Origin: Octopus sinensis
Lineage: Eukaryota
Reading direction: 5' to 3'
Assembly (NCBI RefSeq): GCF_006345805.1
Contig: NC_043001.1
Location: 103,044,001 to 103,108,000, forward strand
DNA: 64,000 bases
Shown here: piece after piece, positions 1 through 3,000 of the stretch
How positions within the stretch are numbered: the stretch's first letter is position 1
Layout: the number at the start of each line of letters is the position of its first letter
The notes under the pieces: model-generated
Database searches by the model: none
The model's input: only the letters and a program-made list of their open reading frames with translations
What the model was told of the DNA's origin: nothing
Position numbers and translations under genes: made by a program

Positions 1-3000
1 GTTGCTTCCTGTTGTATTTTTGGCCTACACAAAATTGGTAAGTAAAATAAGGAATCACAAATGAGTTGATTGTAAGTATCATGCTTTAGATTCTTTAAAT
101 ATTTTCATATTTTATCGTTACATATAAATAAATTTTTCATACTTGTAAATAACTAGTTAGGTTCTGTATTTAAACCCTGCCAAGGTAAACTTTGCTCTCA
201 CTCTTCCAAGGTTGATAATAACCATTTCAGTTCTGAGGTTGATTTAATCAAAGAATCCCTTCCTCCAAAGTTCTAGCCCAAATTCTAAATTCTAATTATC
301 TTTTATCTCTTACCTGTTTCAGTCGTTGGACTGAGTCCGTCCTGGGGCACTGCCTTAAAGAATTTTTAAGTGAAATGAATCGACACCAGCACTGTTTTTT
401 AAGTGTGGTACTTGTTTTATTGGTCTCTTTCGTAAGAACCACTAAATTATGGGGATGTAGACGAAAAAACAATGGTGGTTAAGCGGTGGTGGGAGACAAA
501 CAAAAACACACACACACATATGTATGTATATAAATATATATATATATATATATCAATGGAAATAGGAGTTATGATGCCTGTGCCGGTGGCACATAAAAAG
601 TACTATCCGAACGTGGCTGATGCCAGCGCTGCCCCGACTGGCCTCTGTGCCGGTAAGACCATCCGAACGTTGCCAGCGCCGCCTTGGCTGGGTCCCGTGC
701 CGCTGGCACGTTAAAAGCTCGAACTGATTGTGACCGATGCCGGACCCCCCCGGCCCCTTGTGCAGGTGGCACGTAAAAAGCACCCACTCCACTCGCGGAG
801 TGGTTGGCGTTAGGAAGGGCATCCAGCCGTAGAAACTCTGCCAGATCAGACTGGAGCCTGGAGCGGCCCCTGGCTTCCCAGCACCCACTACACTCTCAGA
901 GTGGTTTGCATTAGGAAGGGCATCCAGCTGTCCTCAGTCAAAATCGTCCAACCTGTGCTAGCGCGGAAAACGGACGTTAAACGATGATGATGATGATATA
1001 TATATATATATAAACATAATAAATAACAGTAGGGCAATAAGAATTATATAAATAATTTATATAATTCTTATTACCCTAATGTTATTTATTATGTTTAAAT
1101 ATTCTTTGATAAATTTGTTTTAAATTTTACTGGCATTCCCTCTGTCGCCGTATATAATCTGCATCTGCGCAGTGGTTTGAAAAGTTAGGATATACATACA
1201 GCTAGTTTACATGTGGATCTAGTCGTGTGTATATTTGAATTCTAAAGGCTTCCTACTGATGAAAACTAGCCTCAGTAAATATTTTTTTACTAGAATTAGT
1301 TAGAAACCATGGTCTAGGAACTAAATAAGATGGTAAACGTTTTTAATTTTCATTCCTTTCGAGAATTTATCCCTAATTAGTGGTTTGAGTTTTCTACTGC
1401 TCTTTCTAGCACAAGGCTTTCCTATTTGGAAGCCTCTTGATGTGTTTTAATGTACACGATATTTATATATATATATATATAAAGAGAGAGAGAGAGAATA
1501 AAGTGTACGTACGCCGCTATATATTTATATAAAATACAAAATGGGACAAGAACGCAAAACATCCAGACAACTAGGTGATGAAAAAGGGGAGATAATAAAG
1601 TACTTGTGATTCCAAAAGGAAGGTGCACGTGCGTTTGTGTATGTGAGAGTGTGTAAGTATATGTGTGTGGGTAGGGGCTGGTGACTTTGACATGTGGATG
1701 TGTACATGTGTAAGTGTGTGTATCTGTAATGTGTGGGTATGTGGATGCTGGTAAGTGGTGAATGCTAGTGTGTGTGGATTGGTGTAGGTTCGTCTGGTGT
1801 GACGGTGTTGGGGTGTGGGTTTTGGGTGGAGATGTGGGGGTAGGGGTATATATGTGTGTGTGTGTATATATATATTAGTTTTTTGTTTTGCTTCCTTGTT
1901 TTTACAGTTGAATATCATATGCTGTGCTCTTGTCGGATCCTATGCGATAGTGTTTTCAATCGATATCCTCACATATGGCATCATTAGGTACATATTCCTG
2001 AATTCATTCCACCACATGATCTATGCCAACTTCAATAAAGCACTAGCAGTAACACCATTTCAGAAAAATGGTAAGTTTCCTGTTTTTCTTTTTCAATATT
2101 ATCACCACCCTCATCATTGTCCTTATCACTGCTATCATAAGACAGGAGCTAGAGCAGTAGGGAGAAGCTATTGATGGTCTATTCTCCATAGAAAGCAAAG
2201 GGCTAGGTTAGATAGAATTTGTCACAGCAGATGTTCTGTAGCCAGATGTTCTTCCTCTCACCAAGCCTCTTCTGTTTCCAACCAAGGTTATTTTTGCTGT
2301 TGGTCACACATTTTTCTCAGAAGAATAACTTTTCTTGTTTGATAGTGATGCTTCTTTACAGCCATCACATGATCTCAAGACAAGCTCACACACACACACA
2401 CACACACACACATAATAGGCTTCTTTCAGATTCTGTCTATAGCATCCACTAGGTTTTGGTCTGCCAGGGGCTATAGTCAGAAAGATTCATTGCCAGTGCT
2501 ACTGGACTGGCTCCTGTGCAGGTGGCACATAAAAAGCCCCATTTGAGCATGGCCATTGCCAGTACCGCCTGACTGGCCCTCATGCTAGTGGCATGTAAAA
2601 AGCACCCACTACACTCTTGAAGTGGTTGGCATTAGGAAGAGCATCCAGCTGTAGAAACTCTACCAGATCAAGATTGGAGCCTGGTGCAGCCATCTGGTTC
2701 GCCAGTCCTCAGTCAAACCGTCCAACCCATGCTAGCATGGAAAGTGGACGTTAAACGATGGTGATGATGATTATGACTTGTCCAAGGTGCTGCTGTGCAG
2801 TGGGACTGAACTTGAAACCATATGATTCGAAAATTAGCTTCTTAACCTCACAACTACAATCATCATCATCATCATGGATTAACGTCCGTTTTTCCATGCT
2901 GGCATGGATCGGTGCATGTAGCAATTGTCTTCCAGATTATTGTTCGCTGGAAACATTTAAGATGAGGAGCATCCAAGATGAGAGAAACCAACATTAATCT

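What the first reader, a model, noticed from the sequence alone, without database searches (positions are those of the whole stretch)
1011..1465. Second, sequence-unrelated (TA)n-embedded cassette with terminal 87-bp fold-back hairpin and type I hammerhead (TM7SF3 intron, sense strand)
Seen: 1011-1097 is a near-perfect palindrome with 43-bp arms, directly after (TA)n. 1250-1320 folds as a hammerhead with a 6-bp stem I, intact CTGATGA/GAAA/GTC and a minimal palindromic stem III (ACCATGGT). Known: such minimal palindromic stem III hammerheads are typical of Penelope-like elements and are proposed to cleave as dimers; inverted termini are a PLE insertion hallmark. Inference: because it is sense to TM7SF3, it could cut the pre-mRNA intron. 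The A-A at the first stem II pair may weaken activity.
Basis: partly seen in the sequence, partly recalled or inferred. Interest (0 to 1): 0.75.

Follow-up and report, generated by a model that had tools for sequence, protein, structure and literature searches.

The report
Hammerhead-ribozyme retroelement copy in an intron
Window 1011-1465 is one truncated copy of a roughly 470-base repeated mobile element that carries a conserved hammerhead self-cutting RNA motif and sits in a TA repeat inside an intron; it is likely a passenger of Penelope-like retrotransposons, an already described kind, and its cutting of the host gene's RNA is untested.

Summary
The palindrome is real (48-nt arms, 94% complementary; z = -12). 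The hammerhead at 1250-1320 is also real, but it is a family feature and not special to this locus.

Window 1055-1465 is one 5'-truncated copy of a dispersed, partly tandem repeat with a period of about 470 bp (family A). A sister family B has the same layout.

- **Conservation:** the 12 invariant core sites vary 1.7% against 7.8% elsewhere (P = 0.0006), while the free site N7 varies 30%.
- **Covariation:** pairs in helices I and II change on both sides, AU to GC. Helix III stays palindromic although its sequence differs.
- **Palindrome:** it is a short inverted copy of the element's own start. 10 of 29 other loci carry an adjacent inverted copy and 9 a partial tandem copy.
- **Ends:** the terminal 3' ends examined mostly abut TA runs.
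- **Context:** the genome holds many Penelope-like elements with C-terminal GIY-YIG that also end at (TA)n. None of the 30 sampled shares sequence with the unit.

Verdict: a new member of the known animal non-LTR retrozyme / PLE-hammerhead class. Cleavage of the host pre-mRNA is possible, but untested and likely weak for a lone copy.

The parts
996..1012 (.). (AT)n run on the left of the insertion, taken as part of the target microsatellite
   Evidence: Sequence; TA-rich direct and inverted repeat families.
1011..1053 (-). Short inverted copy of the element's own 5'-truncated start, forming the left arm of the 87-bp palindrome. Its outer end lies in the family's second 3'-end zone ('type b').
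   Evidence: Arms 1006-1053 / 1055-1102 at 94%. Most other copies hold only the right arm. L006 and L010 have fold-backs with other centres.
1055..1465 (+). Direct, 5'-truncated copy of the family A unit (period about 470 bp), ending at ...gtacacgatattta next to (TA)n ('type a' end)
   Evidence: 88-95% identical copies elsewhere in the genome; alignment of 30 loci; 3'-end table.
1250..1255 (+). Hammerhead helix I, 5' strand (TTCCTA)
   Evidence: Pairs 6 of 6 with 1315-1320. In family A position 1251 is T in 9, A in 13 and C in 8 copies while its partner 1319 stays A, so most copies have 4 pairs, a mismatch and 1 pair.
1256..1262 (+). Core CUGAUGA (C3-A9). N7 is 1260.
   Evidence: C3, U4, G5, A6 and G8 are kept in 30 of 30 copies and A9 in 28 of 30. 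N7 is T in 21 and C in 9.
1263..1302 (+). Long helix II: an A.A mismatch at its base, a proximal helix 1264-1269 / 1296-1301, and a distal helix 1274-1279 / 1286-1291
   Evidence: Pair 1264/1301 covaries A-T with G-C within family A. Pairs 27-81, 28-80 and 30-78 of alignment A1 change on both sides. Helix II folds on its own in nearly all copies.
1303..1314 (+). GAAA core, palindromic helix III (ACCATGGT, 1306-1313) and C17 (1314). The predicted cut is between 1314 and 1315.
   Evidence: G12 28/30, A13 and A14 30/30, A15.1 29/30, U16.1 29/30, C17 30/30. Family B has the 12-nt palindrome ACTATGCATAGT instead. The dimer minimum-energy fold uses an 8-bp helix III between two molecules.
1315..1320 (+). 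Hammerhead helix I, 3' strand (TAGGAA)
1340..1399 (+). Most conserved stretch of the unit downstream of the ribozyme; function unknown (candidate recognition or promoter module)
   Evidence: Minor-letter fraction 0.028-0.040 against a family mean of 0.078.
1464..1481 (.). (TA)n run on the right of the insertion
   Evidence: Sequence. Most terminal family ends abut TA runs.
38..1907 (+). Host intron that holds the cassette (GT at 38-39, AG at 1906-1907), between an exon end at 37 and the exon 1908-2070
   Evidence: Sequence; open frame and translation; Pfam TM7S3_TM198 hit for 1908-2069.

Best explanation
Window 1011-1465 is a single, 5'-truncated insertion of a roughly 470-bp non-coding repeat that carries a family-conserved type I hammerhead ribozyme motif. 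It was likely copied into a (TA)n tract by reverse transcription using the enzymes of Penelope-like elements, which would make it an animal 'non-LTR retrozyme'.

Shown here:
- the repeat family and a sister family exist
- the hammerhead core is conserved and its helices covary
- copies form partial tandems, carry inverted 5' copies and end at TA runs
- Penelope-like elements with C-terminal GIY-YIG and (TA)n-abutting ends are abundant in the same genome

Inferred:
- Multimeric or circular element RNA is cut by paired hammerheads, which form a long helix III between two motifs through the palindrome. The resulting unit-length RNA is probably circularised.
- A PLE reverse transcriptase/endonuclease nicks (TA)n and primes on TA-like stretches of that RNA at two preferred sites, which gives the two classes of 3' end.
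- The cDNA is often 5'-truncated, and a second priming event or template switch adds an inverted copy. Here that copy is the 43-nt left arm of the palindrome.
- The lone sense copy in this intron is predicted to be a bystander that cuts the host pre-mRNA weakly if at all.
For: Family:
- The own-genome search with 1098-1460 listed 58 matches at 86-100% identity (2022 first-look candidates, 40 scored); the full-length copies fetched as loci are 88-95% identical to the window.
- A 24-nt degenerate pattern for the hammerhead 5' half hits 67 places, against 0 for the reversed control.
- Sister family B was found beside a family A copy in L013. Its search listed 149 matches, the full-length ones 80-89% identical. 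Its 22-nt 3' half hits 84 places against 0 for the control. Three direct pairs lie 464-486 bp apart and one 687 bp apart.

Ribozyme:
- The 12 invariant core sites vary 1.7% against 7.8% for 344 other sites; P = 0.0006 from 20000 random site sets. N7 varies 30%.
- 44 of 51 distinct hammerhead segments keep a strict CUGANGA...GAAA...U-H core with pairing helices.
- On 50 sequences the named structure pairs in 85.4% of cells, against 21-43% when the partners are slid. 0 of 500 shuffles reach the observed covariation score.
- Both-side changes occur at pairs 18-99 (AU 30, GC 16), 27-81 (AU 24, GC 14), 28-80 (AU 31, GC 16) and 30-78 (UA 31, AU 13).
- Helix III is ACCATGGT in family A and ACTATGCATAGT in family B, both palindromes.
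- The dimer minimum-energy fold is a double hammerhead at -35.8 kcal/mol, against 2 x -14.0 for monomers. The monomer hammerhead fold is -8.7, above the monomer minimum of -14.0.

Insertion architecture, my reading for 29 loci (L002-L030):
- 9 have an upstream direct partial copy, 10 an adjacent inverted copy (L020 and L023 duplicate each other) and 10 neither.
- Of 40 unit 3' regions in 28 loci, a script flagged 20 as ending at the 'gtacac' zone plus a TA run and 6 as ending about 110 nt further on plus a TA run.
- It flagged 6 more as internal tandem junctions and left 8 unclassed. By eye 3 of the 8 are the second type and 2 are internal.

PLE context:
- Pfam GIY-YIG gives 149 scored matches over its cut-off (5029 first-look candidates), several in open frames of 780-883 aa.
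- The domain sits at the C-terminal end of the frame in L057 and L058.
- 27 of 30 such loci have (TA)>=6 within about 1.7 kb downstream. Many end in a shared terminal motif followed directly by (TA)n, and some carry a tail of about 35 nt.

Literature:
- PMC8557442 (passages): partial tandems, an inverted 5'-truncated copy, a tail and (TA)n targets are PLE traits.
- PMC4209133 (passages): PLE hammerheads have a long helix II, a short helix I and a palindromic helix III, and are thought to act as dimers.
- PMC7229834 (passages) and the preprint 10.64898/2026.07.22.740005 (abstract and Results part 1): animal non-LTR retrozymes, proposed to be non-autonomous PLE derivatives.
Against: - **No PLE link by sequence:** 30 GIY-YIG loci (+/-1.5 kb) were tested by BLASTN (TA runs only), by an nhmmer profile of both families (no hit at E <= 1) and by the covariance model R1 (one weak hit at 15.4 bits). 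None links the unit to a PLE.
- **Few tandem forms in family A:** the 67 exact family A motif hits include no direct pair and 4 inverted pairs. Most copies are therefore solo, and tandem forms with two ribozymes are few (L029 in family A; L045 and the direct pairs in family B).
- **Rfam does not recognise the motif**.
- **Base of helix II:** family A has an A.A mismatch where PLE and canonical hammerheads have G10.1-C11.1. Only subfamily B2 shows the PLE-type unpaired base followed by G-C.
- **Helix I:** in 21 of 30 family A copies it has a mismatch at its fifth pair with no compensation.
- **No direct RNA evidence:** every run found is kept as assembled contigs and labelled RNA only by guess.
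- **Distal helix II:** families A and B are misaligned there in both alignments, which lowers the paired percentage.
Confidence: 0.7

Rival explanations
1. A SINE-like non-autonomous retroelement mobilised by a LINE rather than by a PLE. The hammerhead would be carried for RNA processing, or be a relic. The TA runs would be LINE-type microsatellite tails, and the inverted arm would be an L1-style twin-priming inversion.
For: 5' truncation and 5' inversion also occur with LINEs (established knowledge, recalled). No sequence link to the sampled PLEs was found. Most family A copies are solo.
Against: - Partial head-to-tail tandems with a fixed period of about 470 bp, and copies longer than one unit, are not LINE/SINE traits.
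- TA runs flank both sides of the insertion.
- Copies with an inverted arm have both outer ends at element 3'-end zones, as described for PLEs (PMC8557442).
- PLEs of this genome end at (TA)n.
- I tested no LINE with a matching tail.
Confidence: 0.13
2. A cut-and-paste or rolling-circle DNA element (a MITE with TA target duplication, or a Helitron derivative that inserts at A|T). The hammerhead-like motif would be incidental.
For: Insertion in TA-rich DNA. A terminal palindrome in this copy. Inverted head-to-head pairs occur elsewhere.
Against: - Only 3 of 30 loci have a fold-back at the start of the unit, each with a different centre.
- 5' ends vary widely.
- There are no shared terminal inverted repeats.
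- The hammerhead core is kept far better than its surroundings and its helices covary, which points to selection acting on an RNA.
Confidence: 0.04
3. The motif is a chance hammerhead look-alike in an ordinary AT-rich repeat and has no RNA-level role.
For: No Rfam hit. The monomer fold is not the minimum-energy structure and z = -0.89. Non-canonical 10.1/11.1 pair.
Against: - 0 strict hits in 200 shuffled windows.
- Core sites vary 1.7% against 7.8%, with N7 free.
- Both-side changes occur in helices I and II, and the palindrome is kept with another sequence in family B.
- 0 of 500 shuffles reach the observed covariation score, although related sequences can inflate this measure, as the tool warns.
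Confidence: 0.05
4. The intronic sense copy has been taken over by the host: it cuts the TM7S3/TM198-domain pre-mRNA and so tunes expression of the gene.
For: Sense orientation in a 1.87-kb intron. This copy has an intact core and a full 6-bp helix I, better than most family members.
Against: - It is one of many near-identical dispersed copies, with no sign of locus-specific conservation.
- No second hammerhead lies in the 64-kb window to form a dimer.
- Published lone PLE and amphibian motifs cleave poorly (PMC4209133, PMC7229834).
- This copy carries a C.A mismatch in distal helix II: 1292 is A here and G in 26 of 30 copies.
Confidence: 0.05

Closest known systems
Animal non-LTR retrozymes (Cervera and de la Pena 2020, PMC7229834; Li, Clavereau and Pollet 2026 preprint, 10.64898/2026.07.22.740005)
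   Same: - AT-rich, non-coding units of a few hundred bp that carry one type I hammerhead.
- They occur as monomers, dimers and multimers, and coexist with PLEs in the genome.
[quoted passage not shown]
- A mismatch at the base of helix II has a precedent (U.U in axolotl HHR_Amex2), together with better cleavage as dimers.
   Different: - The unit of about 470 bp is above the 170-400 nt range given in the 2020 paper, but inside the 51-972 bp range of the 2026 preprint.
- Family A is mostly solo or partial-tandem rather than in long arrays.
- Helix II is very long, 40-54 nt, with two helical segments.
- Circular RNA was not shown here.
- I saw no statement about a (TA)n target or two alternative 3'-end zones in the passages I read for retrozymes.
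Hammerheads in the pseudo-LTRs of Penelope-like elements (Cervera and de la Pena 2014, PMC4209133; Craig et al. 2021, PMC8557442)
   Same: [quoted passage not shown]
- Palindromic 15.2-16.2 / loop 3, with presumed dimer action.
- Location about 100-150 nt from the element's 3' end.
- Partial tandems, an inverted 5'-truncated copy and (TA)n targets.
   Different: - No RT/GIY-YIG ORF between the repeats, and no sequence similarity to the 30 PLE loci sampled.
- Family A has A.A at 10.1/11.1 in place of the unpaired base plus G10.1-C11.1. Subfamily B2 does show that PLE-type arrangement.
Newt satellite 2 and Schistosoma Sm-alpha hammerhead repeats (named from recall, and as cited in PMC7229834)
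   Same: Dispersed or tandem repeats that are transcribed and carry type I hammerheads. Their weak palindromic helix III favours double-hammerhead cleavage.
   Different: Those have compact helix II and conserved loop 1 / loop 2 contacts. Here helix II is long, and no loop-loop contact could be assessed.
Intronic hammerheads conserved in amniotes (recalled; cited as reference 25 in PMC7229834)
   Same: A hammerhead in sense orientation within an intron of a protein-coding gene.
   Different: Those are single, locus-specific and conserved across species. This one is a recent copy of a dispersed repeat with no sign of locus-specific selection.

Membership tests
Hammerhead ribozyme, type I | Conserved core C3 U4 G5 A6 N7 G8 A9 ... 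G12 A13 A14 ... A15.1-U16.1, with H17 at the cleavage site | tested here: met
   Present at 1256-1262, 1303-1306 and 1313-1314. Kept in 28-30 of 30 family A copies, with only N7 free. 44 of 51 distinct segments of both families pass a strict core pattern.
Hammerhead ribozyme, type I | Three helices around the core, with helix I open (both ends of the motif lie in helix I), supported by covariation | tested here: met
   85.4% of cells paired against 21-43% for slid controls. Both-side changes occur in helices I and II (and again). Helix III has only 2 common pairs and these barely vary, each on one side only.
Hammerhead ribozyme, type I | G10.1-C11.1 pair at the base of helix II (nearly universal, though not absolute) | tested here: not met
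   Family A has A.A (30/30 and 29/30). Subfamily B1 has G.U. Subfamily B2 has an unpaired U followed by G-C. Published precedent: a U.U mismatch in axolotl HHR_Amex2 (PMC7229834).
Hammerhead ribozyme, type I | Match to the curated Rfam hammerhead models | tested here: not met
   No hit at gathering score, nor at E <= 10 on 900-1600. The long helix II and short helix III probably cost score (inference).
Hammerhead ribozyme, type I | Site-specific self-cleavage | not testable with these tools
   Only energy predictions are available: the dimer minimum-energy fold is a double hammerhead at -35.8 kcal/mol.
Animal non-LTR retrozyme | Short non-coding repeat unit with one type I hammerhead and low GC | tested here: met
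   Period of about 470 bp, my arithmetic from the coordinates of L003, L016, L024 and L029. GC of the hammerhead segments is 0.30-0.40. No ORF of 80 aa or more lies in the unit of L020, and the unit shows no PLE-like coding sequence.
Animal non-LTR retrozyme | Head-to-tail tandem copies, so that two hammerheads flank a unit | tested here: inconclusive
   Direct dimers exist: L029 and L045, three family B pairs at 464-486 bp and one at 687 bp. Family A's 67 exact hits include no direct pair. Most copies are one unit plus a partial unit.
Animal non-LTR retrozyme | Expression as unit-length linear and circular RNA | not testable with these tools
   The runs are assembled contigs labelled RNA by guess. 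They cannot show ends or circles.
Penelope-like element (as a non-autonomous derivative or pLTR relative) | Insertion architecture: 5' truncation, partial tandem (pLTR-like), adjacent inverted 5'-truncated copy, microsatellite target | tested here: met
   9 of 29 loci have an upstream direct partial copy and 10 of 29 an adjacent inverted copy. TA runs lie at the 3' ends and on both flanks in the window.
Penelope-like element (as a non-autonomous derivative or pLTR relative) | Sequence homology of the unit to the UTR or pLTR of an RT / GIY-YIG element of the same genome | tested here: not met
   There were no hits beyond TA runs in 30 GIY-YIG loci (+/-1.5 kb) by BLASTN or nhmmer. R1 gave one weak hit at 15.4 bits in L069. 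Only 30 of at least 149 loci were sampled, so a partner may have been missed.
Penelope-like element (as a non-autonomous derivative or pLTR relative) | Autonomous PLEs with the same target preference coexist in the genome | tested here: met
   149 GIY-YIG matches over the cut-off, with open frames up to 883 aa. The endonuclease is C-terminal in L057 and L058. Element ends abut (TA)n.

The most novel reading that the evidence does not exclude
The two alternative 3'-end zones, the copies longer than one unit and the inverted arms whose outer ends fall in those same zones are genomic footprints of rolling-circle reverse transcription. A circular, hammerhead-processed RNA of about 470 nt would be copied by a (TA)n-specific Penelope-like RT/endonuclease that primes by TA microhomology at two internal sites, from both nicked target strands. 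That would make this family a natural system in which retrozyme mobilisation by PLEs can be read directly from insertion junctions.
Probability: 0.3. Interest if true: 0.6.

Novelty: new member of a known kind. Interest (0 to 1): 0.35.

Why it matters
Hammerhead-bearing repeats and their tie to Penelope-like elements are described for cnidarians, mussels, insects, amphibians and fish. How they are mobilised is still a proposal.

This genome offers two young-to-middle-aged families of about 10^2 motif-intact copies each. They have clear covariation, a clean (TA)n target, two discrete 3'-end zones and many tandem and inverted junctions. Beside them are intact PLEs that also end at (TA)n. Together these make useful material for testing the circular-RNA and PLE mobilisation model.

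For the host gene the finding is ordinary. An intronic transposon copy carries a ribozyme motif whose effect on the pre-mRNA is unproven and probably small.

Tried and rejected
- **Rfam:** no hammerhead in the whole window at gathering score or in 900-1600 at E <= 10. The only hits there were miRNA-like matches to the palindrome, far below threshold, which I read as generic AT-rich hairpin matches.
- **Rfam on 20 GIY-YIG loci** at E <= 0.1: only microsatellite-driven miRNA-like hits and one tRNA. No hammerhead.
- **Search for an autonomous partner:** R1 on 30 GIY-YIG loci gave one weak hit (L069, 15.4 bits, E = 0.23). BLASTN of both units gave TA runs only. nhmmer with a profile of both families gave nothing. 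My own relaxed hammerhead descriptors gave 2 and then 1 doubtful hits. The L054 candidate lies antisense inside the ORF region and is probably chance.
- **L020 / L023:** these copies diverge at window position 1399. The downstream ORFs are low-complexity and not PLE-like.
- **Sequencing runs:** no RNA holder was listed. All 24 runs are Logan contigs and 'RNA?' is a guess.
- **Laying X1, X5, X7 and X10 on 951-1550**: summed contig depth rises downstream of about 1311-1330. Contigs cannot show ends or levels, and the 3' part is also the most conserved part, so I draw nothing from this.
- **5'-end test:** I checked whether a 5'-truncated upstream copy in L003 starts at the cleavage site. It starts at about 1321, not 1315.
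- **Extended helix I** (ATCTAA / TTAGAT around an internal loop): 83% paired in family A with no covariation. The window copy has two mismatches there. Left open.
- **Realignment to the covariance model** did not fix the family A / family B register in distal helix II. That helix was judged from single-sequence folds instead.
- **Search of the own genome with the RNA model** was not accepted.
- **Earlier findings of this scan:** none for this genome.
- **Species:** my literature searches used 'octopus' and 'cephalopod' on a guess about the organism that no call tested.
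Full report
**1. Observation**

The sequence shows an (AT)n run at 996-1012. It is followed by a near-perfect palindrome centred at 1054. The repeat finder reports arms 1006-1053 / 1055-1102, 48 nt long and 94% complementary. As RNA, 1011-1097 folds at -42.5 kcal/mol with z = -12.07.

Positions 1250-1320 can be drawn as a type I hammerhead:
- helix I: TTCCTA / TAGGAA
- core: CUGAUGA
- helix II: 40 nt long, starting with an A.A mismatch
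- then GAAA
- helix III: the palindrome ACCAUGGU
- C17 at 1314

A strict descriptor finds this motif once in the window and never in 200 block-shuffled windows.

Three results go against it. Rfam finds no hammerhead. The local fold is not unusually stable, z = -0.89. The hammerhead fold of the monomer (-8.7 kcal/mol) is not its minimum-energy structure (-14.0). The sequence of this copy alone therefore leaves the motif plausible but unproven.

**2.

A search of the window's own 2.72-Gb genome with 1098-1460 listed 58 matches at 86-100% identity (2022 first-look candidates, 40 scored); the full-length copies fetched as loci are 88-95% identical to the window. Mapping 951-1520 on the 30 fetched loci gave two results.
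- Most copies match from about 1051 to 1481, so they hold only the right arm of the palindrome.
- Only L006 and L010 have a fold-back, and each has a different centre.

The alignment shows that the full unit runs further on both sides and joins head to tail. Past '...gtacacgatat' it continues through a linker into '...gtgctaggccactggtaat...ccctaat...'. From the coordinates of L003, L016, L024 and L029 I work out a period of about 470-478 bp.

The window copy is 5'-truncated at 1055. Its left arm (1011-1053) is an inverted duplicate of its own first 43 nt.

**3. The hammerhead is conserved and covaries**

In 30 family A copies the core is almost invariant:
- C3, U4, G5, A6, G8, A13, A14 and C17: 30 of 30
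- A15.1 and U16.1: 29 of 30
- A9 and G12: 28 of 30
- the one free core position, N7: T in 21 and C in 9

Over 1100-1455 the 12 invariant sites have a minor-letter fraction of 0.017, against 0.078 for the other 344 sites. P = 0.0006 from 20000 random sets of 12 sites. Within family A, pair 1264/1301 switches between A-T and G-C.

A 72%-identical relative beside the family A copy in L013 led to family B. Its search listed 149 matches, the full-length ones 80-89% identical, from 2722 first-look candidates. Family B has the same layout and 3' end, and a hammerhead built from other helices:
- helix I: TTCCTG / CAGGAA
- helix II: GAGCA...TGCTT, or an unpaired U followed by GGCAA...TTGCC
- helix III: the 12-nt palindrome ACTATGCATAGT

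Of 51 distinct hammerhead segments from both families, 44 pass a strict core-plus-helices parse. The 7 failures each carry a substitution or a small deletion in the core.

On a 50-sequence alignment (one segment of the 51, L035, was left out because its helix III is deleted) the named structure pairs in 85.4% of cells. When the partners are slid the figure is 21-43%. 0 of 500 shuffles reach the observed covariation score. Four pairs show AU/GC or UA/AU exchanges in 13-16 sequences each.

Two caveats apply:
- Much of this covariation reflects a few subfamily splits, and related sequences inflate shuffle tests, as the tool states.
- Families A and B are out of register in distal helix II in both alignments. 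I judged that helix from single-sequence folds, where it forms in nearly all copies.

Helix I is weaker evidence. In 21 of 30 family A copies its fifth pair is a mismatch. Family B does show TTCCTG/CAGGAA against TTTCTG/CAGAAA.

**4. Monomer or dimer**

Helix III of family A is two pairs plus a CAUG loop. Two copies of 1249-1321 have as joint minimum-energy structure the classical double hammerhead. It has an 8-bp helix III formed between the two molecules, at -35.8 kcal/mol against -28.0 for two monomers. This is a prediction only.

It fits what is published. Short palindromic helix III motifs cleave poorly alone and better as dimers (PMC4209133; PMC7229834). A mismatch at the base of helix II occurs in the axolotl HHR_Amex2 motif (PMC7229834).

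**5. Insertion architecture**

This is my reading for loci L002-L030:
- 9 have a 5'-truncated direct copy just upstream (a partial tandem)
- 10 have an adjacent inverted copy, including the two fold-backs (L020 and L023 duplicate each other)
- 10 have neither

Of 40 unit 3' regions in 28 loci, the script sorted them as follows:
- 20 end in the 'gtacac-gatat' zone followed by a TA run
- 6 run on for about 110 nt into the next unit and end at '...ccctaat-attattta' followed by a TA run
- 6 are internal tandem junctions
- 8 were unclassed. By eye 3 of these are the second type and 2 are internal.

The outer ends of the three fold-back arms (window, L006, L010) all fall in the second zone.

Several features match the traits that Craig et al. 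2021 list for Penelope-like elements (PMC8557442):
- copies longer than one unit
- variable 5' ends
- two preferred 3' ends
- TA runs on both flanks
- inverted 5' copies

The tandem cDNA model proposed for retrozymes fits as well (PMC7229834).

**6. PLE context**

Pfam GIY-YIG gives 149 scored matches over its cut-off, from 5029 first-look candidates. Several lie in open frames of 780-883 aa. In L057 and L058 the domain lies at the C-terminal end of the frame.

Of 30 such loci, 27 have (TA)>=6 within about 1.7 kb downstream. Many end in one shared terminal motif directly followed by (TA)n, and some carry an extra tail of about 35 nt. Enzymes that target (TA)n are therefore plentiful in this genome.

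I could not link the unit to any of these 30 loci by sequence. The mobiliser remains an inference.

**7. Copy number**

First-look candidate counts are not copy numbers. Exact pattern counts are firmer:
- Family A, 24-nt degenerate hammerhead 5' half: 67 hits against 0 for the reversed control, with 4 inverted pairs and no direct pair.
- Family B, 22-nt 3' half: 84 hits against 0 for the control. Three direct pairs lie 464-486 bp apart, one lies 687 bp apart, and there are 2 inverted pairs.

By my count of the rows, about two thirds of the sampled family A segments would match the first pattern. Each family therefore has on the order of 10^2 motif-intact copies.

**8. Host gene**

The frame of 1908-2069 hits TM7S3_TM198. 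Splice signals bound an intron at 38-1907. The hammerhead is sense to this gene.

The covariance model finds no second hammerhead in the 64-kb window. This copy has a C.A mismatch in distal helix II, since 1292 is A here and G in 26 of 30 copies. No usable RNA data exist. Cutting of the pre-mRNA is therefore possible, untested, and by analogy likely inefficient.

The 2026 preprint reports that retrozymes are depleted from Xenopus introns relative to intergenic DNA. That is consistent with some cost of genic copies, but it says nothing about this locus.

**9. Comparison and verdict**

The element works like, and most likely belongs to, the animal non-LTR retrozyme / PLE-hammerhead class. Defining features that are met:
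- the core
- three helices with covariation
- a palindromic helix III
- a short AT-rich non-coding unit
- tandem and inverted PLE-type junctions
- coexistence with PLEs

Features not met or still open:
- G10.1-C11.1 is absent in family A
- no Rfam match
- few true dimers in family A
- no circular RNA or cleavage shown
- no homology to a PLE

In the library searched I found no paper that describes hammerhead repeats in the animal group I guessed. A 2026 octopus repeat annotation lists PLEs but has no occurrence of 'hammerhead', 'retrozyme' or 'ribozyme'. I did not open any supplements.

Novelty: a new member of a known kind. Interest is moderate to low for the locus and somewhat higher for the family as material for studying retrozyme mobilisation.

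Noticed in passing
L051, L055, L062, L066, L070, L075-L080 (aligned) and L057, L058 (printed): about 75-110 nt upstream of the (TA)n-abutting 3' end: The 3' UTRs of the abundant C-terminal GIY-YIG Penelope-like elements share a conserved hammerhead-like motif. It reads UUGAUAA, then GGUUC...GAACC, then GAAAC-AUGU, with U3 and A8 in place of C3 and G8. These are the two core bases that pair with each other in the active fold (recalled). It also has G10.1-C11.1 and the palindrome ACAUGU. L069 has an AUGAAUA variant (A3/U8). Standard CUGANGA descriptors miss it. Helix I is only 3-4 A-U pairs. Whether it is active is unknown.
   Followed up: partly
window 556-992: The neighbouring GC-rich cassette between two TA runs is an unrelated and very abundant repeat (8375 first-look candidates; copies up to 98% identical over 1-331 of the query). 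The window copy carries an internal duplication of about 50 nt (779-830 against 880-931, 88%).
   Followed up: partly
window 1340-1399: The stretch downstream of the ribozyme is the best conserved part of the unit (minor-letter fraction 0.028-0.040 against 0.078 overall). In the contig laying, several loose ends at 1387/1388 suggest that further related families share it and then diverge. Its function is unknown.
   Followed up: no
window 1246 / 1314 (contigs of runs X7 and X10): One contig in each of two runs, labelled as different organisms, joins an inverted copy whose 5' end is at 1314 to a direct copy starting at 1246. The breakpoint is within one base of the predicted cleavage site (1314|1315). 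This is a single junction and may be coincidence.
   Followed up: no
L013 565-664 and 1626-1721 (both on the - strand): A family B copy and a family A copy lie about 1 kb apart in the same orientation, each ending at its own TA run. This suggests repeated insertions into one TA-rich region, as in the window, where two unrelated cassettes share one TA tract.
   Followed up: no
L055, L073, L076-L079: Some Penelope-like copies carry an extra segment of about 35 nt (...ACCCACTCGTATACGAGCTAATCTTATTATAAA) between their usual terminal motif and the TA run. This matches the 30-40-bp 'tail' described for PLE insertions (PMC8557442).
   Followed up: no
window 1482-1880: The rest of the intron downstream of the cassette is mostly (AG)n followed by degenerate TG-rich direct repeats (families D2 and D4), ending in another TG/TA run just before the acceptor site.
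   Followed up: no
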